Shown here piece after piece: positions 49,934-64,000 of a stretch of 64,000 nucleotides of DNA; within the stretch, counting starts at the first letter, position 1; every line of letters begins with the position of its first letter. The notes beneath the pieces were generated by a model, which was not told the DNA's origin, did not search any database, and was given only the letters and a program-made list of their open reading frames with translations. The position numbers and the translations under genes are program-made. The DNA is from Orbicella franksi (Eukaryota). Location: NCBI GenBank assembly GCA_964199315.1, contig OZ116701.1:25544001-25608000 (forward strand), read 5' to 3'.

Positions 49934-50221
49934 ATGGCATTTCGGGTAGTATATCCACAGGGTGGCTCTTCACCTGCCCGATGCTAACTAAATTTACAAT
50001 TGTAAAAAGGTTAAAAGATATCAAAAAATGTATATCTATATGTAAACGAGATATCTGTACACAGAATTTGCCAGTATCCATTAGACTCCACACCTACTAC
50101 TGAGGGCGCGCGTGATGTCGCACACCCATTTGAAAACTTGCCTACGCTAAAAAAAATTAATTGAAGGTTTGCAAGTTTATTGTATTGCGATGGTGGATAT
50201 TATCAACCCGTCAGTTGAAAC

Positions 50222-50659
50222 ATGAACAATCTTTCAGTCGAGGAAGTGACAGTTAAATACATAAACATGCTTTTAGAAAAAGAAGTGGGAGCTAGAAAAA
50301 TGAACCATCCTTCAGAAGAGGCAGTGGATCAGTTAAAAAGTCTTTTTGATTATATGGATGAACTTAAAGAAAAATTCTCTGTTAGTCTTAAAGAAAATTT
50401 TTCGGCGACGCCCAAAGAACAAAGACCTGAAATTGAGAAAAAGATGCTGAACCTTTTGATCAATTCACTTTTTAAAGAAGAAGCGTCAGATCTTACTGAT
50501 CCGGAATTGAACGTGACTTTAGATAATTCTTTGTGTGATTTTTTTCAGCAGTATCTTCCAAAAATAGTCGATAAATTTTGTAAGCTCTGTTTGAGCGCGA
50601 GACCTGAAGAATTGCACTTTGTTTTTCAAGAATTATTTAAAGGTTTGTATTCATGTTGA
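50222..50659 (+). CDS. Hypothetical accessory protein, 145 aa
   Basis: Open ORF in the terminal region of the element; no motif recognised. Confidence 0.55.
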   Translation: MNNLSVEEVTVKYINMLLEKEVGARKMNHPSEEAVDQLKSLFDYMDELKEKFSVSLKENFSATPKEQRPEIEKKMLNLLINSLFKEEASDLTDPELNVTLDNSLCDFFQQYLPKIVDKFCKLCLSARPEELHFVFQELFKGLYSC

Positions 50660-50665
50660 ATAAAG

Positions 50666-50986
50666 ATGGCGCTTGCAAACAACGTACCCACGGAAGAGGA
50701 TTTTCAAGACCTCCAACAAAATCTACCCGACGTTACAACAAATCAACAAGTCGAACTTGATTATGAACCTGAACTGCAGCAAGAAAAAGAGAAAAATTAC
50801 TGTTGCGACGCCTGTGGCAAAAGATTTACTCAATCGAACTCGCTTAAAAGGCACAGAAAATATAGTTGTGAAAGTTTGGAAACAGAAAGGCTTCCTAAAG
50901 AAAGCTGCCCAGGATGTGGTAAAATGTTGCATAAAACGACGGTTTACAAGCATAAAAAAAATGGCTCTCCGAAAAAAGTTAATTGA
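50666..50986 (+). CDS. Small C2H2 zinc-finger protein
   Basis: CDACGKRFTQSNSLKRHRKYSC followed by CPGCGKMLHKTTVYKHKK. Confidence 0.75.
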   Translation: MALANNVPTEEDFQDLQQNLPDVTTNQQVELDYEPELQQEKEKNYCCDACGKRFTQSNSLKRHRKYSCESLETERLPKESCPGCGKMLHKTTVYKHKKNGSPKKVN

Positions 50987-51011
50987 AGGTTTGCGTGTTC
51001 ATTGTATAGCG

Positions 51012-51257
51012 ATGGCAGACATTATCAACCAGTCAGCTGAAAACATGAATAATCTTTCAGAAGAGAAATATAAAACAACTACGGACAAACAGAGTCTTTT
51101 TATGCAAGCTGGTATTATTGCAAGTGCGAGGTCAATGAATGAGGGCGAAGAAACGCAGGTCAATGAGTTTGATGAACTCGAATTAATGAAAAATCTTTTG
51201 AAAAGCTATAAAGCTTCTAAAGAACATTTAAGAAATTTTGCCGCTCTTGGGACATAG
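51012..51257 (+). CDS. Hypothetical protein whose start is paralogous to the 50222 ORF
   Basis: MADIINQSAENMNNLSEE, within an ~82-bp direct repeat. Confidence 0.45.
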   Translation: MADIINQSAENMNNLSEEKYKTTTDKQSLFMQAGIIASARSMNEGEETQVNEFDELELMKNLLKSYKASKEHLRNFAALGT

Positions 51258-51427
51258 TATCTTGGAGATCAGAAATATTCTAACAGATTTTCAAGAAGTT
51301 GTGCCGCCTTTATTACAGCGTATTTGGAAGGGATGAAAGATAATGAAAAACAAGTAGTTTTGGCCTCCGTTGGGGTAGGGGGTTTGATTGAGAAGTTATT
51401 AGACGCTATTGCGCTTAGTGCACGTTT

Positions 51428-51508
51428 AAGATAAAGAAAAAAGCAATTTTAATTGCTTTTTTCTTTATCTTGAATACTTGCAAAGCTTTAAAAAGCTTTG
51501 CAAGTATT
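51428..51508. other. Two adjacent perfect hairpins (21-bp and 17-bp stems, 2-nt loops)
   Basis: AAGATAAAGAAAAAAGCAATT-TT-AATTGCTTTTTTCTTTATCTT, one G, then AATACTTGCAAAGCTTT-AA-AAAGCTTTGCAAGTATT. Confidence 0.95.
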
Positions 51509-52445
51509 TAGCAAAATGGGGCGCGGCAGGAATGGTTTTCTCAATGCAAGCCACATGAAAAACAAAAAATTGAAAAAGGCAAGGAAAGAAGAGCCTTACT
51601 GGGATTTGGTAAAAATACATAAAGACAAAAGCCGTCAACAGACGGTATATCTGTTGGAAACACCGTTGATTGAATTAATGCAAAGTTTAGAACCACGAGA
51701 AACGGTCAAGGCACTTTTGAAATAAGCAGCCAATATTCTCTTATCAAAAAAAATATAAACATGCCTCGAGCAATCAGCTCTAATGGTGTTACTGTCACGT
51801 GACGCTGTGTTACAGACCAACAAAGGTGGCAAAACCCTCGTCGTGAGTGCTCGATGGCTGTTGTTGCCTAACCCTGGCTAGGGCTTCTCCCGCCGCTGAC
51901 AAGGCGGCTGTCATTCCCATTTAACCTCTGGGACAGAGGTTGAAATACCGAGGAATCTGTGAACACCTCCTGTTGCCAGTAGGGCCGGAGCGAGTTCACC
52001 CGGGGGTACCGTCTACTGGAAGACATCCCCCACCACTCCTAACAAAGCGCCTGCACGTGCCGTATTAGGAATTACAGGTGGCCACCCTGACATCCAAAAG
52101 CACCGCCATTTGCTTCGCTAACAATTGGTTATGCAAATCACATATTTATATTGCTTGGTCAGGCTTTCTGCATACTTGTGGTACTCTTTCTCTGTCATTC
52201 GCTGCACATGCGCAGAAAAATGACAAATTAATTTGGACAGACGTAAATGTTGCCGGGTATTAATTAGCTGTTTCAAACAAGGCATCGACGACTTCGCGTG
52301 TAATATCACGCACATTTTTTGGCCACTCTGGTGTGAAATATTCGTTCACAAGAAACGCAATCAAGTGTAAACAGACGATCATGTTCTTATAATATGCAAA
52401 TGACATCGTGTGTTTTTAAATGTTAATTCGAAGTGGCGGGATTGG

Positions 52446-53063
52446 TTATTTTTTTATCAGTTCGGCTTCAACTTTGCCGCGGATCTCTTTCTCTAGTTTG
52501 TCAGCATCGACAATCTTTCCGCTCGACGGTTGTCGAAGCAGATTAGCTCGTACTTGTTCTTTCAGGACGTTGTACTGCTGAAACTCGGAAAGAATGATGT
52601 CAAACTCGTGGGCCGACACGGCGTTGTTATTCAAAGCTTTGGATAACAATCTGTTGACTGTGTCACGTTTGGCGACGGCGAGCGGGGTAATCTCTTGATG
52701 CTTTTTAATTTTCGCCTCAAGTTTTCTGCTGGCGATTATCAGCCCTGAAGAAACGAGATCGAAACATCCGCCGACGCCACCTAACGGAACTATGGCCGGC
52801 AGGCCGACCACAGACAGAGCCGAGTCGAGGCTCGCGCTTGAAAACGCTGCAGAGAGAACACTCGAGCCCGCAGCACTCCAATTAACGAATTTCTTGGCCC
52901 GTTTGTATTTTTTCGCAACGAGGCGATAGTGTCTGACTTCTTGGCCCAAAGTGTTGGCCATCTCGTCGATCTTTTGCAAACGGAAATTTTCAGCAGGCGC
53001 CGTCAATACGGGATAGAGAGGCTCCTCAGGAGGAGCGGAAGGCAGAACGTTCGCAGACGACAT
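52446..53063 (-). CDS. Conserved Maverick membrane-type protein (PW / 'GasderminX'-like)
   Basis: LYPVL...NFRLQKIDE...KKYKRAKK, a central Gly/Ala hydrophobic stretch, then KKHQEI...LLSKALNN...EFDIILSE; intact 205-aa ORF. Confidence 0.75.
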   Translation of the reverse strand: MSSANVLPSAPPEEPLYPVLTAPAENFRLQKIDEMANTLGQEVRHYRLVAKKYKRAKKFVNWSAAGSSVLSAAFSSASLDSALSVVGLPAIVPLGGVGGCFDLVSSGLIIASRKLEAKIKKHQEITPLAVAKRDTVNRLLSKALNNNAVSAHEFDIILSEFQQYNVLKEQVRANLLRQPSSGKIVDADKLEKEIRGKVEAELIKK

Positions 53064-53078
53064 AGTATATATAAAGCT

Positions 53079-53752
53079 TTAATTAATTTCTAATTCAAAT
53101 TCCAGAGGCATGCCTTTGAAATCAAAGAGCTCCCCATGTTCATCTTTGACGCTGACGATTATGCTATTTACATGGGCGTCTATGGAGCAGTCACGCAACA
53201 CCTTTTGCAGGGTAGAATCGTAGCTTACTTTGGCATAAGGCAAGCCTTTTATGTCAAATCTAGCCAAAACATCGGACCTCTTCCCGTTTAAAAAATCTGT
53301 GGTTTTGTCGAGCAGATCGCAATGAATGAAATTGGTGCTTGGGCTGTTTAGCTTTTGAAATATGTAATATCGTTTAATGTCACCCCGATGCCAAGCAACC
53401 TAGTCAAAGGGTACCTAACTGAAATTTGTTCTGTTGAGACTGTTTCACTTCTTGTTATTTTTAGAACAGAGCTAGGCTTATTCATTTCTACTTCAATTTT
53501 TTCATCGTTGTTATGTTTTTTGAAACTTTTTCTCAGCTCTTTTGCAAGGCTCTCAACAGTATAATGACCCTGAGGCAAAGAGGCAAGCACCTTACCAGAA
53601 TTTTTGAAAGATATTAGCCCCACTCTTTCAAGATTGTGCCAGCTATTGTACAATATGCAAGAGAGGAGTCTGATGAAATGTACCTTCGGGAGTGGTTCCT
53701 CAAAGTACACGGTTTCTCCATTATTTTGCGCGACAATCGTAAGCACCACCAT
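53079..53752 (-). pseudogene. Minor capsid protein (penton-like)
   Basis: MVVLTIV...EEPLP...RLLSCILYNSWHNL...LPQGHYT; frameshift near 53350; C-terminus FIHCDL...VSVKDEHGELFDFKGMPLEFELEIN. Confidence 0.82.
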
Positions 53753-53780
53753 AATACTGTACAAATATAACATATTCAAA

Positions 53781-55418
53781 ATGGATAGCGCTGCGTTCAA
53801 GGACTTTGAAAAATGGGCGCAAAGGCCCGATACGAAAGCCAAAGAAGCCACGGCCCAGACAAACTCGTGGGCCGAATTCAAAAAACAGGTCCCGAATGCT
53901 GATAAAAACCAATTCGTGGCGCAAATCAACATCGATGAAAAGCGCAGCATTACGGCAGAAATGTTCTTCAAGGCAGGGGAAGGTTCTCTCCAAAGCGTGT
54001 TTGGGTCAGACAGGCGCTACTGGAGCCAAAAAATGAAATCTGCTCTTGGTTTGGCAAGTACGGCAGGCTTCCCTTATCAATTGTCGCCAATGAAAGCCAA
54101 AAACGCGCTAGCCATACCCGCTGAAAATTTTGCAGAGACACCTGCAAGCCTGAAAAAGATTTTCAACCAACCCATTAACATATATGTGACCCCAGACGTC
54201 TTCTTCGTGACAAAATTCAGAGAAATCTTTCAACAAACCAAGCTCAGGCATAACAGTGCATCTGAATCAAAGCGGTGGCTTGGTGGACCCCACATGTCAT
54301 ATTGGCCACAGCGGCTCAACTTCGCCGTGTTTTGTGCGACACAAGGCTGAAGAATTTCACGAGAAATCTTTGACAGCGGCCTGGCAATGCCGCCGCAAAT
54401 AAGGGCTTTTTATAAATTCCACGTGTATTTCACGGTAAGACGCATTTTGTACCAGCTTGGTGGAATTCAGAGCATCAGCGCTTTGCCATGCGACCTAACA
54501 TTCGACAAATCTAACAACCATTATGAGTGGCTTCATCCAACGGGATCTGCGATGAGTTCAGCATAGATTCATCCAGTGATTTTTGCTTCACACACGGGGC
54601 AAACCACGGGCTGGGAAGCATATACTTTTATGTGTCAGGGCACCCAACGAAGACAGAAAACCCGTTCCCAGGATACAATAAATTTAGTGATGAAGGTGGG
54701 AAAGCAATCAAAGGAAACCTGATTTCTTTCATCGAGCCGGAGGATGTGCCCCAGTACGACTGGTTCGCCCCCAACACAGCCTCTGGTTTGACGCAGGCAG
54801 GTCTGGTGCGCATAAACCAGTCGATCGAAGCGTTCGTGTACTGCATCTTGGGCGCGCAGGTCAACGTGCGCAGCAGTATTCTTGGCCAAGGCGGCCGGGC
54901 TAACGAAGCCCAGAGCAAGTTCCTTGTGTTGATGGAAGACGCTATCAGACAGCCCGACCTGGCCCAGAGCGTGCAAAGGTATCAGCTGGCGGTGGATGAA
55001 GCGAAGGTCAGGCTCAACCAGGTGGTCTGCCCGGGCGCTTGGCTGATGCCTGCGAGAATGATCATCAACACAGAAAGGACGGTGGGGTACAACAACAAGC
55101 TGAAACAGGCCGTTGCTGGGATAAAGCTGGGGGGTAAACAACGGGGTAAACCCGAGGACAAAAAAAGTCGCCCTCAAACTCATGGCAGGCGGCCCTTCAA
55201 AAATCAACCCACCCAACAGCCACCCATCTAACCCTATTCACAAAGAAGCCATGGCCGCCCAAACAGGCAAGCCGCAGCCAAAAAAAGAGGAGACCACGGG
55301 ACAAGAGGAGCCCACGGCACAAGAGGAGCAAAAAACTAGCCAACAGGAAATCAACAAAACAGCTGTGATAATAGGGGGCGTAGGGCTCGTGGCGTTGATC
55401 TTAATCGCCTTGCGTTAG
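53781..55418 (+). pseudogene. Conserved Maverick protein of unknown function (possibly PZ-like) with a C-terminal transmembrane segment
   Basis: WPQRLNFAVFCATQG*, KFHVYFTVRRIL, VRINQSIEAFVYCILGAQ...RSSI, VQRYQLAV, ending AVIIGGVGLVALILIALR; one stop and two frameshifts. Confidence 0.7.
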
Positions 55419-56963
55419 GCCCGTTTTTGATATATTTTTCAAAAATAAAGACAACAGCCGCCGAGATCAGAAGCCAGGTGTGCTCGGCGAGATAGCCAAC
55501 CACCTTCCCGGCCGTTTTGAAAAGAAAGCTCGCGACCTGGCCGATCGATATCAGCCCTGGGAGCAGGGCCCCATGCTTCGTGTCGATTTCTTTTAGGCCG
55601 GCCCACAAAGCTTTGCCGGTGGCCTTCAAAGCATTTGTAACCGTGCCGATCAGCCCCGATCGTGATGCCGGCTGCCAAAAAGGTGGCTGTCACAGTGACG
55701 CCATATTTTTTGAAAATTTCTTTGATTCTTTCGGCGAGAGAGAGAGCCCTTTCTCGTTCCTCAGTCTGAGTTTGCAAACGCGCGAGATCTTCGTTTCTTT
55801 CTGCCACACCAGCATCTGTGGCTTCTCTGGCGGAGAGGGTGGTGTTTTCATCTTGGATGACCGCCCGATCTTCTTCGTTTTGGCGCTGCAGCTCGCTTTC
55901 GAGCTCTTTCAGCTCATCAAGTGTTTGGGTTCTGTTGAACCTTTCTTCCAAGGCGTTTCTATGACTTTCTTTCGCTGCAACTCTTCCACTGAGGGTGTCG
56001 AGGTCCTTTTGGGCTTTTTCTCTGCTTTTGGATTGTTTTTTAAGAGAGGCTTCTTCTTTTTTTCACATTCGTCAGACGGTTCTTCAAAGCTTTTTGCTGG
56101 CTCTTTAAGGCTTCTGGGTCATAGTCTTTCAATCTTTCTTGTAAGATGGCAGTCTGGGCCTCCTTCTCCGCGATCTCGCGTTTCAGTCTGTCGCTCTCTA
56201 GCGACTCTTTTTCTTCTTTTGCGATCAAGTTCTACAACAGTTTTAGTTGTTTTCCAGCTTCTATAAGTTTTTCTCTGTCTTCTCTAACGTCCCCTGGGGG
56301 GTCTTTATTTATTTGCTCTTCTTGAAGAGCGATATATTCCGTGCGGATTTCCTCGGTTTTTTGCTTATAGGTTCTCACCTCTTGAGCCTGTCTTTCTTCT
56401 TCTGATGTTTGCACATTCAAGACCCTTTGAGCTTCTGCCATTCTTCGGGCATCTTCTTGAAGGCTGGCGTTTTCTTCAGCCATGATTGTTTCAAAAGAAG
56501 GCCCCAGAGCTTTTAGGATTTCTTTTGGAAGATTAGGGTTCAGCCTTTGATTTCCTGTCGTATTATCCTTTGTAAACAATGGGTAAAATTTTTTGCCAAA
56601 GCCAGACTTTTTAACTTGCAAACGTTTTTGGCTGTAAGAAATCTCAAGATCTATCGAGCTTGCCTCAGGAAACAGAGCCTTTCAAACATCCCACGACGTT
56701 TGTATTTCAGCTTGCGCTCCCAACAAAGGGGTTTCTTCATAATAAGAAGTGTCAGGCAGGCCGCTCTTCTCGTGTTGCCTCTTTTGCATTTCCAGTTCTT
56801 CACCTCCGTGGTAGGGGGTAGACGCCGCGCCCGGCTGAAGGGGTTGTGTTCTGTTCACCTCTTGTTCGTCGTCATCATCATCATCGTGGTCGATCTGGTT
56901 GTCAAGGTCAGGGTCATTGTAACAAAATTCGCCGCCGCCTTCCGCCATCGCAATATATTCCAT
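55410..56963 (-). pseudogene. Coiled-coil protein with C-terminal amphipathic/hydrophobic helices (adintovirus 'cupiennin-like' type)
   Basis: Acidic N-terminus, long coiled coil, IKEIFKKYGVTV, GKALWAGLKEI...LLPGLI...SFLFKTAGKVVGYLAEHTWLLISAAVVFIFEKY; several frameshifts. Confidence 0.72.
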
Positions 56964-57095
56964 ATATGTTCTTTTTAAATTAGAAAATAATCAAGGATTA
57001 ATATACCATGTCGTCTGCGAACGTTCTGCCTTCCGCTCCTCCTGGTGAAATCCCGGACGTGCTGCTTCCAACATACATGGCGAAATCTTTGGGGC

Positions 57096-58037
57096 CATGA
57101 AAACGAGGTGCTGGTGCCCGGCTCGCTGGCGCTGCGCTTTGACATCGACCTGGAGGGCGGGCACGCCGACAACGTTCTCGTTCGAAACGTTACGCGGGCG
57201 CTGGTCGACAAGCTCGTCGTAAAGTTTGCGGGCACCACCCTGCAAGACACGGTGGGGTACGGCATCTACAAAACGTTCGAAGACCTGTTTCTCCCGGTCC
57301 AAAAACGCGACAACATGGTGCAGGAGGGGATCCGGAGTGATAAATTGAACAAGATACGCTTAAACGCAGGCGACAGGGCAAGCGACCCTGCTGAAACCAA
57401 GCTCAACGAGACCTTCGGAAGCAAATACTACATCATGCTCGACCACCAGATCTTGACCGACCACGACATTTTCTACCCCCAGGCCCTGTACAACGACCTC
57501 ATTTTCGAAGTGACGCTCGCCCCTGCTTCACAGGTGGTCAGAGGCTCAGACCCCACCAAGCCGAAATACAAGCTGACCAACATCCAGCTCGAGTACGAAA
57601 TGATACGCAGTAAGTTCCTCGGAGCCGAGGCGCTCAGCGTGTATCAGAACGGCAAAGAATTCGCTTACGACCACGTGATGCGGCACAAAATCGTGAGCTT
57701 TAAAAAGGGCGCGGATTCGCGGCTGAACATCAAAGTCGACGCTCAGAAACGGTCCCTGAAAGGGATCCTATTGCTTTTCATGGAGCCGTATGTCGCAGGC
57801 GCCCGGGACTCGGAAAAATACATCTTCCCCGACATCACCAAAGTCAGCGTCACCATCAACGGCTCGCCAAACATGCTGTACAACGAAGGCATCGAAAGCT
57901 AGGACATGTGGAAAGAGGCCAGCCGCTTCTTTGTGAAAGAAAAAAGCAAAACCGAAAACATGACGCTGCAAAAGTTCTACACCGAAAACCGGTTTGAGAT
58001 GCTGATCAACCTGTGCTCCATGGCCGACCAAACGCTC
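57096..58037 (+). pseudogene. Major capsid protein (double jelly-roll), truncated at both ends
   Basis: ENEVLVPGSLALRFDI, NVTRALVDKLVVKFAG, YKLTNIQLEYE, RSLKGILLLF, FPDITKVSVTINGSPN; internal stop at 57900-57902. Confidence 0.88.
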
Positions 58038-58250
58038 TCGAGCATTGCGAAACCGTTCCGTGAAAATGTGGCGGTCATCGTGCTGTTCTACACCCCTTCG
58101 GCCAAGACAACGAGGGCGATTTTTGAAGAATACGCGGGAGAGCTTTCGCAAGGTGCCCTCAAGCAGCTGATTGCGAGGCTTAAAGAGAGCAAGTTCTCCC
58201 AACTTATTTTCTCTCTTCGCCACCCATACGAGATCGAATTTTCGAATTAA
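58038..58250 (+). pseudogene. Packaging ATPase C-terminal remnant fused in-frame to the MCP
   Basis: SIAKPFRENVAVIVLFYTPSAKTT...LIFSLRHPY matches the recalled post-Walker-B region of Maverick A32/FtsK-like ATPases; Walker A and B are absent. Confidence 0.7.
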
Positions 58251-58270
58251 AAAAGGAAAACGTTAACTAA

Positions 58271-58798
58271 ATGGCGGCCATTACCGATGACGATATGAAA
58301 GTTATGGAAGAAGTCGCTCAGATGCTCGAAACCGAGCCCTCAAACTCTCCAGGCCCCGCTCTTTCTCAGCCAGACATCCCAGCCCTCTGAGAAGAGCGTG
58401 CAATTCTGGTTTCTACAGGCAAAGCAAAGGAAGCTATCGGCGTGCAGCTTACACAAGAGCAGGTTAGCGCTTGGAAGCTAAAGATGTTGAAAAGTACTAC
58501 AAAAGGTATGAGACTTACGTAGGTGCCAAGATCACTGAAACCTTTGTCAATAGCTTTATCTCGGTTTACACCAGGGGAATTGGTATGTTTTTGCCGATTA
58601 AAGACGTTGAAGCTCTGCAGAAAGATCTCAAAAAGAGATTACGTCATCACCAAAGAGTTGTCCACCCTTGTCGGAAGTCTTGCGTTGAAATGTGGGCGGC
58701 TTCTCATGGTACTCAACACGGCACTGATCACAACGAAACATGTCGATCTCATTACTGCTAAGGATTGCCAAGCAGTTGCTGAACAAACTGCTGAATAA
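58271..58798 (+). pseudogene. Conserved Maverick hypothetical protein
   Basis: AILVSTGKAKEAIGVQLT...KYYKRYETYVGAK...DYVITKELS, spread over stops and frameshifts. Confidence 0.65.
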
Positions 58799-58854
58799 TT
58801 AGTAAGCTTTGCCCAGCAATTCCTCAATGAAATATTTTTTTGTTTAATAAAATA

Positions 58855-59276
58855 ATGGCAGATTCAGAAAACACTCAAGTCGAGCCGGCACAGGGTCAAG
58901 TTAATTCAAAAATACCAACCACACGGCCTGCGAAAAACCCGAACCGGATGGCTGCAGGCAGAGCCGTCGCTGCAAGAAAAAAGCCGCTGAAGCCGCGGGT
59001 CTCGTTCTTCCTAGCAAAAAGCAGCCAGGCGTTCATGAGGTGCCCGTTGATGAGGTGCCAAAGGAAGACACAAAAAAAGTTATCAGTATGACGCAGTGGC
59101 TCAGTATAATCAGCATCGCGGTTTCCGTCATTGGCCTCTATTAAAAACGCGAAGATATAAAAAAGTTTTTCAATCGACAGCCTGCTACGCCTCAACCAGC
59201 CGTCGAGATGCAAGCCCCTGTTGATACGCAGCTGCCTCGACCGGTGCAAAGAAGAGAGCTCTGGCATATGGATTGA
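58855..59276 (+). pseudogene. Small membrane-type protein
   Basis: KNPNRMAAGRAVAARKK then, after a frameshift, QWLSIISIAVSVIGLY. Confidence 0.55.
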
Positions 59277-59308
59277 TATTTGAAAATAAAAACGATGTAC
59301 ATTATGCG

Positions 59309-59501
59309 ATGTCAGACAATAAGCTCGTTAATACGATAATGGATGCGGTCGTTCTCACCGAAAAAGGTGGTAAAAGAAAACTTTACCTCTGACCCGAGCA
59401 GCGGTGTCATGCAATATGCAAAATTTACGGCTGTCCTGTCAGGTAGCATCGCACTCAAACAGTACCTTGAAGACCAAAAAATTCTTCCGTCTTCGGTTTA
59501 G
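59309..59501 (+). pseudogene. Small hydrophobic protein remnant
   Basis: MSDNKLVNTIMDAVVL...KFTAVLSGSIALKQYLEDQKILP with a frameshift. Confidence 0.5.
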
Positions 59502-59527
59502 AAGAAAGAAATATTGTCATAATACCA

Positions 59528-59761
59528 ATGCCACGTTGTCATTTTTTCCTCAAAGCCCTCTCAACGGTTGCGTTATTATATTTTTCAATGAAGATATCTT
59601 ATTATACCGCTGATGCCATAAAATTTGTTTGGTTGGATGCTATTGAGGATTCCGATTAGGAGGACTCTGATTTTGAGGATCTCGGTACTGAACACTTTCC
59701 ATTACCGGACAAATGCCTTACGCCTCCTCCGTACGAACCCCCACCGCCATACGATAATTGA
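59528..59761 (+). pseudogene. Small protein with N-terminal hydrophobic segment, acidic linker and tandem PPxY motifs
   Basis: My translation: MPRCHFFLKALSTVALLYFSMKISYYTADAIKFVWLDAIEDSD*EDSDFEDLGTEHFPLPDKCLTPPPYEPPPPYDN*. Confidence 0.65.
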
Positions 59762-59785
59762 AAAAAACATTTTTACACATATACA

Positions 59786-60211
59786 ATGGCGAGCATTGCG
59801 ATGATGATTGGGGGCGCGATTCTTAACGCCGCTGCTTTTTCCGGCGGCAACTACCTTGTCAGATATCTGTCTGGCGACAGTGGGAAAGCGGCATTGGCAG
59901 AGAAAACACGACACGACAAAGCCCTTGAAGCTTATCAAGCCGCTATGGCCAAATACACGCGCGACCGCACCGTGCTTCTTGATTGGATCGAAACCAACAG
60001 AGAAATCAAAGAACAGGCGAAGCAGAACTTCACGAACACCGACTACGCGTTCAAACTCTATAACCAGGCCCACCCAGACAAACAGATCACAATCAAAGAG
60101 CCTCGCTTCGCTGACTTTTATCAGCCCAGTGAGTAGCAGAAATAAGGCGAGCTGCTTTTTGTGGACAGCAGCGCGCTCGCTCTCGGCTAAGCGGCTTTCC
60201 GTTTTCTTTGA
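59786..60211 (+). pseudogene. Conserved small Maverick protein with hydrophobic N-terminus
   Basis: MASIAMMIGGAILNAAAFSGGNYL...RHDKALE...FADFYQPSE*QK*GELLFV; the frame continues past premature stops. Confidence 0.7.
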
Positions 60212-60232
60212 ACGTGAAGGTGTAATAAATAA

Positions 60233-61195
60233 ATGGACGCCAAGCTTGCCAAAGTCTACTACAGCCCACAGGGTTACTGGAGAGGCATCGCTGCCATCAA
60301 AAAATTAGCGGAAGCTGCGAAAGTCCCTGAAGAAACCGCCAAGCAGTGGCTCATCAAACAAGCCCTCTGGCAAATCTATCTCCCCGCGCCGCGATATGTT
60401 CCACGGCCCAAATTCGACGTATCGTCGCCTAACGCGGTCTACCAGGCGGACCTTCTTTTTCTGCCTCATGACAAGCCCCCTCGCGACCGCAAAGTTTACA
60501 AATACGCGCTGACTGTTGTCGACGTCGCCAGCTGTTACAAAGAGGCAGAACCTCTGACCTCCAAAGACTGCGGAGGTTGCGAAAGCTTTTCAGTCGATTT
60601 ACAAGCGCAGCCCTTTGACGTGGCTTCAGCTGCTGCAGGTCGACCCTGGGCGCGAGTTCATGGGAAGCGTGACCAAAGAAATGGAAAACCCCAAAAGTCG
60701 ACACGGGCGCCCTGAAATTCACAGAGACCAGGCTATCGTGGAACGGTTCAACCGCACGCTCGCCGAGCGCTTGTTTGGGCATCAGTATGCTGTAGAAATG
60801 CTTTTGCCTTCGGTTCAGCGGTCGACTGCCTGGGTCAAAAGGCTTCCCGACGTTGTTGCCGCTCTTACCGGCGAAGTCACTAGTCTTATCGGAAAAAAAC
60901 CGGCTGTCGCTATCAAAGAGAAATCTGTCGCCTCCAAACCCTCTACTTATTAAAACTCCCCTCACTTCTTAGTGTAAGATATTTGTATCAGCCCAGCGAA
61001 CTTGAAGGCGGGACTAAAAGAGCCACAGACCCAGTTTGGTCTTTGAAAGTACACCATCTTGAAAGAACTGTAACCAAACCGAACGAACCTGTTGTCTATT
61101 ATTTGTCTGACGGGCCTTAGCGCGGTTTTGTTCGCGAAGAGCTGTTGGTTGTGCCTCCTAATACGCAGCTTCCTCCCGAAAAAGTCCGTTCCTGA
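60233..61195 (+). pseudogene. Retroviral-type (rve) integrase
   Basis: YYSPQGYWRG, DDE residues in QADLL, VDPGREF and VERFNRTL; C-terminal VRYLY...RATDPVWS...YYL...GFVREEL; frameshifts and stops. Confidence 0.93.
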
Positions 61196-64000
61196 TCTTT
61201 TTGTGCCCGTATGCCACCGTGTGCACGCCGTCGTCAGCCATCCACCGCTTCGTGTCGAACGCCGACAGCGAGGCCTTCTCCACGCGCACGCCGTAGATCT
61301 CGTGGCCCTCGCTTCGCAAGATGTTCATCCCGTGACAGAACTGCTTTCTCTCAAAGAACGCCTCTTTGTACTGCTCATGCTGGATCTCTTTTTTTTTACG
61401 AAATTTTTTCACGCCTTTCGCTTTTTTGATGTTTTCTTTTTCTTCTATGATCGAGTACATTTTCGACCGTATCGCCACCGCTTCAGCGATCACCCTCCCC
61501 GCGCACTCGTCTTTCATTTTGCCCAATACCTTTTTGTTTTCACCGCTGTAGACCGGGTGATCTTTGGGGTAGTTGCTCGTGTCGTACAGCGCCAGGTCTT
61601 CCACCATGTCTCTGTATATGTCGTCCGTCTCGATGAGCAGGCTGTCGGTGTCTGTGTAGATCAGCTCGCATTTCTCCCCATATCGGGCTTTCATCTGGTT
61701 GTAGAAGAAGTCGTACATCAACATCTTGCTGTTCTCCAAGATCGTCATGCCGGTGTCTATCGGCTTATCCAAGAACAGTCGCGTTTTGTGCATGTGGATG
61801 CCTGCCAGGTCGCTTACGTATATATGAAAGCCTCCGTACGAGGCGCTGGCCGTCAGGCGGCGTCTCTTTTCTTCCTCCCAGCTCCGGACTATCTTCACGT
61901 CGACGCGGTTGCATAGGTTTTCCATCGTTTTGCCGAACACCGAGTTGTTCATCAGCTCGTAGAAGTTTGTTTCGAAGTCGCTCTTCGCCTCTTTCCTGAA
62001 CTCTGTGATCATTCTGATGTAGGGCTCTATCCACCGCTCCTGGTCGAACTCCAGTACTTGGTGGACGGTTTTCAAACGCATTCCCTGTTTCAGGTATAGC
62101 TGCAGGTTCCGGTAATGGACCACGTACTTTTCTTTGCTCTCCAGAGTGAGCACCAGTTTCTCGCTTGTCGGGAAGTCCAGCCCCAGATCTTCCATCATTC
62201 TCTTTTGGTAACCTGACATCTTTTCTGCCCCGATGAACTTCTTCTCGGGCGCGAGCGGGTAGCTGTTGTGAGCTTCGTGGAGCTCCTCTGGATACTCAAG
62301 GTCCACCTCCAAGATCCAGCCTAAGTGCGAGTTTTCTTTCATTTTCATTATTTGCTCTTCCATCGGCATCACTCGCTTCCACTTGAAGCCTCCTTTCGGC
62401 AGCGGCAGGCTCATGGCCCAGCCATACAGGTTGTTCGCGTCCAAGTACGTAATGTATTTGTTCGGCTTGCTTGGGTCATAGTCGGCCGCCCGCGAGTTGT
62501 TCGCCTTCGCGTACCGCTTGCTTGCCATCGAGATGCCGCCTCGCATGCCTTTTTCGATAAAAAGGTGCATGTCCAGGTCTGTCAAGAGCTCCAGCTCGAC
62601 GCCGGTCTTTTTCAACAGTACATCCCAGCTCAGACCGGGAGCTGTGTAATAGTGCGCGGGGTCGAGCCCGTACTTTTCCATGCAAACTTTTCGGAAGTTT
62701 TCGAATACGTCGACCAGCAACACCACGTCGGTTTTTACATACAAGTCGTGGTAGTCGCCAAGGGTCTTGCAGCCGAAAGCGGCCCACACGGCCTGGACGT
62801 GGGCGTACTCTTCTTCGGTTATCCCTTTGCCTGACAGCTTTGAATAAAACTCTTCTTTTGGCGGCAGCCCTGCCTCGGCGAAACTTTCGAACCCGTCCAT
62901 GTACTCGTACGGGTAGATTCCTTTCAGCATCAGCTTCCTCTTTTCTTCGTCTTGACACAGCTTTTCTATAATTTTCATGTCTTCCGGCGCGTTTCCCTTT
63001 ACCAGCCCATCGAGGCTGCTCATCATGAAGTTCAGGCTGTCTTTGAATGTAAGGGTTTCAATCGAAAAGGAGACGTATTTCTCCATGTTGTTCGGGATGC
63101 AGTTTATTTCCCCCTGCATCCGCGCCATGGCCTGCATCAACAGGTGGCCGTCGTAGCCCTTCAGATTGTGGAAGATCACTGGTATCGGCGCCGTTTTAGG
63201 CTTTATGCCTAGCTTTAGGTTGGTATTTTCCTGTTATGTGGCAGTGGTCTTTCACCGCATCTCTGTATCCGTTTACCAGCAGCGGGGTCCTGCAATATAC
63301 ACACGCTTCGGTGTCGTGGCCTTTTGGCTTCCTTTCTCTTCTTAGGCCCACGAACCCCTTTTGTGTCTTTGATCGCAATAATAACCTGTGTTGGGGTCGT
63401 ACACGCCAAATGCATCTCTGCCTGCCTTTACCACGCTTTCGTTGCAGATGTGGAATTGTGTTGCGGCCTTGTACTTGGCCCAATCCTTTCTCGTCATGAC
63501 TATCGGCTTTGGGGTGGCTAGCTCGGCCCTCATCGCCTTTTCGTGGTTCTGGAGGCTCATAAGAAACCTGTAAACCGCGTCTTCCCCGCGGTACCCGTAC
63601 GGGCTGTGCGTCTGGCCGTCGCTTCTCACGATTACATATGAAAAGCCACAGGGCTCGTGGACCTCTGTTTTGATCGTCACCTGGTTTTCTTTGGCGCAGC
63701 CGCGGATCTTCCTTATCAAAGACTCAAAGTCGGCGTACACCACGAACGGCGCTTTCATCTGCTTGTGATGGTTCTTGAACCTGACTTTGTTTTCATCCTC
63801 TTTGGGCAACTCGGTCCTTGTGGGGCGTTTCAGCTGCCCCATGCATTCCGGTTTGTGCCTTTCCAGCAGCTCCGCCGTCTTGTATCCGTGCAGACATCGT
63901 TCGCAGAAATGTTTGACACCCCCATGCTTGCTTTGGCCATGCAGCAGTGCGCTCAGCCTTCTCACATAAGTATAATGAGATTTTTCTCCGTCTTCTATCA
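61158..64000 (-). pseudogene. Protein-primed family B DNA polymerase (pPolB); C-terminal 673 aa open, upstream part frameshifted and running off the window
   Basis: YADFES, DHCHITGKY, FHNLKGYDGH, DSLNFM, YPYEY, YLDANNLYGWAMS, LMNNSVFGKTMEN, YTDTDSL, KAKGVK. Confidence 0.97.

What the first reader, a model, noticed from the sequence alone, without database searches (positions are those of the whole stretch)
59528..59761. Hidden small membrane-type protein with tandem PPxY late-domain-like motifs
Missed by the ORF track because one TAG splits it. It has an N-terminal hydrophobic stretch, an acidic linker, then PPPY (59723-59734) and PPPPY (59738-59752) at the extreme C-terminus. PPxY motifs bind NEDD4-family WW domains and act in budding of enveloped viruses and in adenovirus protein VI trafficking (established). 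Together with neighbouring hydrophobic genes, this hints at NEDD4/ESCRT-dependent egress or entry in this Maverick lineage, which I do not recall being described (inference).
Basis: partly seen in the sequence, partly recalled or inferred. Interest (0 to 1): 0.72.

Follow-up and report, generated by a model that had tools for sequence, protein, structure and literature searches.

The report
Coral polintovirus PPxY membrane adaptor gene
This is a real, optional small gene of a virus-like DNA element in a coral genome, broken in this copy but intact in many others, whose conserved twin PPxY tail likely recruits host ubiquitin ligases to membranes, while a second, apparently core gene of the element carries two other classic virus-budding motifs.

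Summary
The ORF (59528-59761, one TAG at codon 44) and both PPxY motifs are there. It lies in a decayed Maverick/polintovirus copy. The stop is private: 0 of 29 other genomic copies have it. Intact 72-96 aa versions exist, and the Pro/Tyr tail is under purifying selection (shared-change omega 0.22 vs 0.89 for singletons, p=0.008). The gene is optional, though. It sits beside only 44 of 150 scored copies of its downstream neighbour, in a slot that is otherwise empty or holds another gene. The membrane anchor is marginal. Best reading: an accessory, likely membrane-bound adaptor for NEDD4-family (ITCH/WWP) WW domains, working like herpesvirus UL56/U24, with an added LC3-binding-like (LIR) motif. 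An obligatory egress role is less likely. A much more widespread 205-aa SLATT-like gene of the element (52446-53063, minus) carries conserved P(S/T)AP and YPxL motifs (54 of 81 anchorable homologues have both; shuffles 0.15%). So all three late-domain classes occur in this lineage, which my searches did not find in print. No binding was tested.

The parts
59528..59761 (+). Accessory small ORF (77 codons), interrupted here by one TAG; intact in many other copies
59543..59632 (+). N-terminal moderately hydrophobic helix (residues 6-35); predicted single helix, marginal as a transmembrane segment, evolves almost neutrally
59657..59659 (+). Premature TAG private to this insertion
59660..59683 (+). 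Acidic/Ser stretch ending in F-E-D-L, a LIR/AIM-like core (core in 36 of 41 homologues; duplicated in the 95-96 aa variants)
   Evidence: LIR consensus from my own knowledge
59696..59713 (+). F-P-L-x-x-K block, invariant F, P, L, K in 32 of 32 intact ORFs; function unknown, Lys a possible ubiquitin acceptor (inference)
59723..59734 (+). First PPxY (PPPY)
59741..59752 (+). Second PPxY (PPPY), two residues after the first in this copy (three in most relatives)
52446..53063 (-). Intact 205-aa SLATT-like helical-hairpin protein with central hydrophobic hairpin; widespread gene of the element
53031..53042 (-). PSAP motif (TSG101-type late domain) of the 205-aa protein
53004..53018 (-). LYPVL motif (ALIX-type YPxL late domain) of the 205-aa protein
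57001..57044 (+). 44-nt inverted copy (98%) of the 205-aa gene's start, placing a PSAP on the N-terminus of the putative major capsid gene in this sub-lineage
59786..60208 (+). Downstream 141-aa hydrophobic gene (3 stops here), right flank of the variable slot
59316..59501 (+). Remnant of the upstream 73-aa hydrophobic gene, left flank of the slot
60233..61186 (+). Retrovirus-like integrase, broken here
61158..63998 (-). Family B DNA polymerase pieces (named from catalytic motifs I recall; no Pfam hit)

Best explanation
The ORF is an optional accessory gene of a coral polintovirus whose 72-96 aa product likely sits on a host membrane by its N-terminal helix and likely uses its conserved tandem PPxY tail to recruit NEDD4-family (ITCH/WWP) ubiquitin ligases, working like herpesvirus UL56/UL42/U24. 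Shown: the gene is real, intact in many copies, dispensable, mobile within one slot, and its tail is under purifying selection. Inferred: the fast-changing N-helix picks the membrane or host target, the ligase ubiquitinates the adaptor or its client, and the acidic F-x-x-L motif would add LC3/GABARAP binding. The client or the ligase would then be sent to endolysosomal or autophagic turnover. In elements that carry it, it may also assist ESCRT-dependent release, which more likely rests on the P(S/T)AP + YPxL protein.
For: The tail is conserved. 13 of 14 intact genomic ORFs and 33 of 43 database proteins have PPxY. Shared changes in the tail are 13 non-synonymous to 19 synonymous, against 30 to 11 for singletons (omega 0.22 vs 0.89, Fisher p=0.008). 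The N-helix has shared omega 0.90, so it is variable while the motifs are fixed, as expected for an adaptor. The gene is accessory: 51 places in G000, next to 44 of 150 scored copies of the downstream gene. The slot holds PPxY / nothing / another gene in 10 / 13 / 7 of 30 loci, and presence needs 12 changes on a 50-row tree, at least 3 forced by well-supported branches. The AF2 model is one helix (5-45) plus an unstructured tail. A LIR-like pattern is found in 34 of 41 linkers against 12.8% of shuffles. The host has four clustered WW exons whose full one best matches WWP1/ITCH single WW domains. Precedent: small, non-homologous herpesvirus membrane proteins with PY motifs bind and deplete Itch (PMC5849660, abstract), and UL56 is dispensable in culture and degrades GOPC through its PPxY motifs (PMC7539533, passages).
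Against: The anchor is weak: KD19 median 1.42, 6 of 32 reach 1.6, and the uncharged run is only 12 residues in 15 of 32. The topology is opposite to the tail-anchored herpesvirus proteins. An invariant Lys next to the tail differs from lysine-free UL56. One distant homologue (P0044) ends without the PPxY tail. The LIR core is lost in 5 of 41. No client is identified. PPxY also binds non-ligase WW proteins (YAP, KIBRA, MAGI). Expression is not demonstrated: RNA evidence is contigs only.
Confidence: 0.48

Rival explanations
1. The protein is an auxiliary late domain. It marks the budding membrane and brings NEDD4-type ligases to the site where the P(S/T)AP + YPxL protein recruits TSG101 and ALIX, so that capsids leave in an envelope or vesicle. 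Redundancy among late domains would explain why it is optional.
For: All three motif classes occur in one element, and each is concentrated in one gene family among 357 ORFs scanned (YPxL 5 of 5, PSAP 4 of 5, PPxY 5 of 7). The 205-aa motifs are kept across two classes only 42-45% identical, with variable spacing and PSAP/PTAP exchange. Its fold hits invertebrate iridovirus proteins (E 8e-5, 8e-4, low-confidence model). The iridovirus TFV splits the three motif types over three proteins with redundant use of ALIX, TSG101 and NEDD4 (PMC4880917, abstract and section 6).
Against: About 70% or more of the sampled elements lack the gene. Nothing shows that it is in particles, and no particle or envelope is known for these elements from what I read. 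Its presence does not track loss of PSAP/YPxL: by coordinates it occurs beside both classes of the 205-aa gene, which keep their motifs.
Confidence: 0.27
2. The tandem PY is a decoy for Hippo/polarity WW tandems (KIBRA, MAGI, YAP) rather than for ligases, and would alter host cell growth or polarity.
For: The window copy's tail is two canonical PPxY separated by exactly two residues, the optimum for KIBRA/MAGI2/3 tandems (PMC6744271, passages). The host has a KIBRA-WW1-like exon.
Against: The two-residue consensus is met in only 2 of 14 intact genomic ORFs and 5 of 36 database tails; a three-residue linker dominates, and that paper reports it weakens KIBRA/MAGI binding.
Confidence: 0.13
3. The protein acts in entry like adenovirus protein VI: it is a membrane-lytic internal capsid protein whose PPxY drives transport to the nucleus.
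For: An N-terminal helix with a moderate hydrophobic moment (0.36-0.66) plus PPxY; the protein VI precedent (PMC2841620, abstract).
Against: It is optional rather than core, strongly acidic, about one third of the size of protein VI (size recalled), and has no sequence or fold hit.
Confidence: 0.06
4. The ORF is non-functional or the motif is an accident of proline-rich sequence.
For: Proline-rich tails give one PPxY in 32.8% of shuffles. The N-terminal half shows omega near 1. No homologue was found outside these coral-associated data.
Against: Two motifs in 18 of 36 against 3.2% by chance; tail omega 0.22 with synonymous variation at Pro and Tyr codons; many in-frame length variants; 26 of 29 copies without an internal stop.
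Confidence: 0.06

Closest known systems
Herpesvirus UL56 / ORF0 / UL42 / U24 PY-motif membrane adaptors (PMC5849660, PMC7539533)
   Same: Small, accessory, membrane-associated viral proteins with one to three PPxY motifs in an unstructured cytosolic part; little sequence similarity even among themselves.
   Different: They are tail-anchored (C-terminal TM) and ours has an N-terminal, weaker hydrophobic helix. Ours has an invariant Lys and a LIR-like motif. No homology was detected.
Iridovirus (TFV) VP031L / VP065L / VP093L late-domain set (PMC4880917)
   Same: YPxnL, P(S/T)AP-like and PPxY motifs spread over separate proteins of one dsDNA virus; the 205-aa protein's model hits invertebrate iridovirus proteins.
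   Different: TFV is a large enveloped virus with tested interactions. Here two motifs share one protein, the third gene is optional, and nothing is tested.
Adenovirus protein VI (PMC2841620)
   Same: N-terminal helix plus PPxY in a virus of related ancestry.
   Different: Protein VI is a core, protease-processed capsid protein with one PPxY (details recalled). Ours is optional, short and acidic.
Stony-coral polintoviruses / adintoviruses (PMC11131425, PMC8502044)
   Same: rve integrase, A32-type ATPase and DUF5679 gene. A 'SLATT' label appears on or near the Hydra and Stylophora maps in the Starrett Fig. S2 text (layout-parsed), which may be the 205-aa family.
   Different: The passages and sections I read mention no late-domain motifs, envelope or ubiquitin ligase link, and not this small gene.

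Membership tests
Viral PPxY late-domain protein | PPxY motif present and conserved under selection | tested here: met
Viral PPxY late-domain protein | Binds NEDD4-family WW domains in a Tyr-dependent way | not tested
   no binding prediction or assay was run
Viral PPxY late-domain protein | Lies in a virion or budding-site protein needed for release | tested here: inconclusive
   gene absent from most elements; particles not testable
UL56/UL42/U24-type adaptor | PY motif(s) in an unstructured segment of a small accessory protein | tested here: met
UL56/UL42/U24-type adaptor | C-terminal tail anchor (type II) | tested here: not met
   hydrophobic segment is N-terminal; so not a member, only works alike
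UL56/UL42/U24-type adaptor | Binds and depletes ITCH or a client | not testable with these tools
   needs cells
Single-pass membrane protein | Hydrophobic segment of about 19 residues above the usual threshold | tested here: inconclusive
   KD19 0.94-1.70, 6 of 32 at or above 1.6; confident helix in AF2
Adenovirus protein VI | Core gene with sequence or fold homology | tested here: not met
LIR/AIM-bearing protein | [WFY]xx[LIV] core after acidic/Ser residues, conserved | tested here: met
   36 of 41 core; 34 of 41 vs 12.8% shuffled
LIR/AIM-bearing protein | Binds ATG8/GABARAP | not tested
KIBRA/MAGI WW-tandem ligand | [quoted passage not shown] | tested here: inconclusive
   met by the window copy; 2 of 14 and 5 of 36 relatives
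Polintovirus (Maverick) | rve integrase and A32/FtsK packaging ATPase | tested here: met
   sister copies: rve E 4e-7, Pox_A32 E 6e-8; window copy matches them
Polintovirus (Maverick) | Protein-primed PolB, double jelly-roll capsid protein, terminal inverted repeats | tested here: inconclusive
   no Pfam or PDB hit for the PolB-like or capsid-like ORFs; named from recalled motifs and position; repeat scans of 50000-64000 and of L084 were run separately, so TIRs were not tested

The most novel reading that the evidence does not exclude
Coral polintoviruses leave cells without lysis by hijacking ESCRT. A widespread SLATT-like membrane hairpin carries TSG101- and ALIX-type late domains, one sub-lineage has copied the PSAP onto its capsid protein, and this optional PPxY + LIR protein adds NEDD4-ligase and LC3 recruitment. 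That would make them enveloped or vesicle-cloaked viruses with a full late-domain toolkit, and give a route for spread between cells and into the germline.
Probability: 0.3. Interest if true: 0.82.

Novelty: new variant of a known kind. Interest (0 to 1): 0.63.

Why it matters
How animal Mavericks/polintoviruses leave and enter cells is open. One preprint I read says envelopment is proposed only for nematode Polintons, from a fusogen, and is uninvestigated elsewhere (10.1101/2023.08.22.554363, passages). Conserved P(S/T)AP, YPxL and PPxY motifs give three named host partners (TSG101, ALIX, ITCH/WWP) that can be tested with single expressed proteins. The PPxY gene itself is a candidate viral ubiquitin-ligase adaptor in an early-branching animal, convergent with herpesvirus UL56/U24.

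Tried and rejected
Wider homologues of the PPxY ORF: HMMER over 1.84 billion representatives gave 7 hits, all in-family. IMG/VR gave none, the ESM Atlas no usable hit, Pfam and NCBIfam none, and BFVD none at E<=0.001. This is weak evidence for narrow range, because tiny ORFs in animal genomes are rarely annotated. Viral-contig scans with neighbours gave one false phage hit (L091) and nothing for the 205-aa family. PDB fold search of the 205-aa model found nothing at E<=0.001. Paralogy with the upstream hydrophobic/charged ORF was rejected (probability 1%). Splicing from a possible acceptor near the ORF start: no canonical joint among those listed (contigs only, so not excluded). Raw-read RNA runs X23 and X24 laid 0 and 3 reads, which is no test. 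Lower depth over the ORF than over its flanks is not used as evidence. Earlier scan findings: none returned. The Starrett supplement was cut and its slide and sequence files were unreadable or not reached, so I could not check whether the 205-aa family or the small gene is among its named 'SLATT/Adintoc' sequences. Supplements of PMC11131425 were not read and may list these clusters.

Full report
Observation. Translating 59528-59761 gives a 77-codon frame with one TAG at codon 44, a hydrophobic N-terminal stretch, an acidic linker, and PPPY (59723-59734) and PPPPY (59738-59752) just before the natural stop.

Context. The window is G000:C4, a 497-Mb animal genome. Runs that hold the cassette are labelled coral metagenome or coded organisms A-C, so the host is likely a stony coral. 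The ORF lies in a cassette of small hydrophobic genes ahead of an integrase and an opposite-strand polymerase-like gene. Sister copies give rve (E 4e-7), Pox_A32 (E 6e-8) and DUF5679 (E 2e-5) hits, matching the coral polintoviruses of PMC11131425 (section 8 and passages read). The polymerase and capsid names rest on recalled motifs and position, since they had no Pfam or PDB hit. This copy is decayed: 3 stops in the 141-aa gene, 3 in the integrase, 1 in the capsid-like gene.

Is the gene real? A DNA search gave 40 matches (40 of 81 candidates scored; 30 fetched). Of the 29 other loci, 16 hold an uninterrupted ATG ORF of 72-99 aa, two with shifted tails; I aligned the other 14. At the codon broken here, 0 of 29 genomic copies and 1 of 53 metagenome loci have a stop; 46 are sense, 5 gapped, 1 not covered. 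The one with the stop, L067, shares an identical neighbouring frame with the window, so the lesion is real and private. 43 database proteins match. 13 of 14 genomic and 33 of 43 database ORFs have at least one PPxY, and 7 and 18 have two. Among 36 complete tails, 31 and 18 compare with 32.8% and 3.2% in shuffles. In 32 intact ORFs, codon changes shared by several sequences give omega 0.22 in the tail (13 N, 19 S) against 0.89 for singletons (30 N, 11 S; p=0.008). The acidic part gives 0.48, the N-helix 0.90 (p=0.57), and the 141-aa control 0.11. This count is crude, and alleles of one insertion may inflate 'shared', which works against the result. Simple pairwise NG86 gave 0.48 for the tail and 1.16 for the N-terminus. 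Contigs of RNA runs X1, X3, X5, X12 and of runs X15 and X18 (organisms B and C) cover the ORF. That shows presence in three organism labels, not transcription; the two raw-read runs gave no test.

Anatomy. AF2 gives one helix (5-45, pLDDT about 90 at 11-30) and a coil tail. Hydrophobicity is marginal: KD19 median 1.42, 6 of 32 at or above 1.6, and an uncharged run of 12 residues in 15 and 19 in 10 of 32. A membrane anchor is plausible but not shown. The linker ends in an acidic/Ser-F-E-D-L pattern, a LIR-like core by my own knowledge of the consensus. It is present in 36 of 41 (3 of 44 lacked the anchor), and a stricter pattern is in 34 of 41 against 12.8% of shuffles. Variants keep the aromatic and the leucine (YEDL, FENL, FEAL, FDPL), and the longest variants duplicate it. 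F-P-L and a Lys just before the tail are invariant in 32 of 32. The PY-PY linker is three residues in most and two in some, including the window copy.

The gene is optional. A protein search scored all 58 candidates and gave 56 matches at 51 places. The downstream gene had 292 candidates, 150 scored, and only 44 of those 150 have the PPxY ORF within 800 nt. In the 30 best loci the slot holds it in 10, is empty in 13, and holds another gene in 7; the query came from a carrier, so this overstates presence if anything. On a 50-row tree of flanking DNA, presence needs 12 changes (at least 3 forced; shuffled mean 15.5; support is low on many branches and two rows are long). This is the pattern of a mobile accessory gene, not of an obligatory release factor.

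A second gene carries the other late domains. The intact 205-aa ORF at 52446-53063 (minus) begins with PSAP and LYPVL. It has 1023 homologues. Of the best 120, 39 were dropped (33 no anchor, 6 short). Of the remaining 81, 74 have P(S/T)AP, 59 YPxL and 54 both, against 2.3%, 7.0% and 0.15% in shuffles. In G000 it has 305 candidates in two classes 41-45% apart. The distant class has PSAP in 11 and YPxL in 11 of 12 fetched; the near class has 20 and 21 of the 24 that printed, out of 30. Spacing varies and PSAP exchanges with PTAP. Among 357 ORFs in 14 element stretches, YPxL occurred only in this family. The model is a long helical hairpin with a hydrophobic tip (pTM 0.34). It has weak SLATT similarity (E 8e-4, below cut-off; Atlas lead 0.80) and Foldseek hits to invertebrate iridovirus proteins (E 8e-5 and 8e-4, about 21% identity). 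A 44-nt copy of its start also puts PSAP on the capsid-like gene in this sub-lineage.

Mechanism. I commit to an accessory adaptor: N-helix on a membrane (inferred), tandem PPxY binding ITCH/WWP-type ligases (inferred from established WW biology; the host has a matching WW cluster), and an optional LC3/GABARAP link (inferred, untested). The likely outcome is ubiquitin-dependent sorting or turnover of a host membrane client or of the ligase (0.48). Rivals: auxiliary late domain acting with the P(S/T)AP + YPxL protein (0.27), Hippo/polarity WW decoy (0.13), protein VI-like entry factor (0.06), no function (0.06).

Comparison and novelty. It works like herpesvirus UL56/UL42/U24 (PMC5849660 abstract; PMC7539533 passages) but fails membership on topology and homology. 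The split of three motif types over proteins recalls the iridovirus TFV (PMC4880917 abstract, section 6). Searches: adintovirus + late domain, 0 papers; polinton + ESCRT, 2 papers with single mentions, listing only; polinton + PPxY, 1 paper, a motif scan of virophages; broader searches returned general ESCRT papers, listings only. In PMC8502044 (section 8, passages, part 1 of the supplement) the membrane-active genes named are PLA2X, GasderminX and Cupiennin, plus a SLATT label; 'protein VI' and 'envelop' had no hits. The library lacks most subscription papers. Verdict: a real gene, a new variant of a known kind of viral PPxY adaptor, plus an apparently undescribed late-domain set in coral polintoviruses; interest 0.63.

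Noticed in passing
window 52446-53063 (-): Intact 205-aa SLATT-like protein with N-terminal PSAP + LYPVL. 1023 homologues; of the best 120, 81 could be anchored: 74 P(S/T)AP, 59 YPxL, 54 both. Model hits invertebrate iridovirus proteins. Probably the more important finding.
   Followed up: partly
window 57001-57044 / 53027-53070: 44-nt 98% inverted repeat: the PSAP-coding start of the 205-aa gene is duplicated onto the putative capsid gene. PSAP in the window and L155, PYAP in L052 and L152, truncated in L154 and L060, absent in L085, L087, L090.
   Followed up: partly
window about 55416-56963 (-): Broken long coiled-coil gene with a conserved amphipathic/hydrophobic C-terminal region and an acidic N-terminus with recurrent dileucine-like (ExxPLL) and, in some copies, NPxY/F sorting motifs.
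   Followed up: partly
L094, L096, L097, L102, L104, L105, L113, L119 (slot between the 73-aa and 141-aa genes): A different gene of about 100 aa occupies the same slot; by eye it resembles part of the downstream 141-aa protein; L105 has both it and the PPxY ORF.
   Followed up: no
G000: About 300 candidate copies of this element family; two classes of the 205-aa gene at 73-90% and 41-45% identity to the window copy, mixed with the same downstream modules.
   Followed up: no
G000:C13:22886579-22889364 and C9:7559274-7559363: Four clustered WW exons (ITCH/WWP-like) and a KIBRA-WW1-like exon in the host genome.
   Followed up: partly
P0044: Distant homologue (68 aa) that keeps the N-helix and acidic stretch but ends before the PPxY tail.
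   Followed up: no
window 50150-51065: 71-nt direct repeat, 822 nt apart, spanning the starts of two small ORFs, one beside a C2H2-like zinc-finger ORF at the left end of the element.
   Followed up: no
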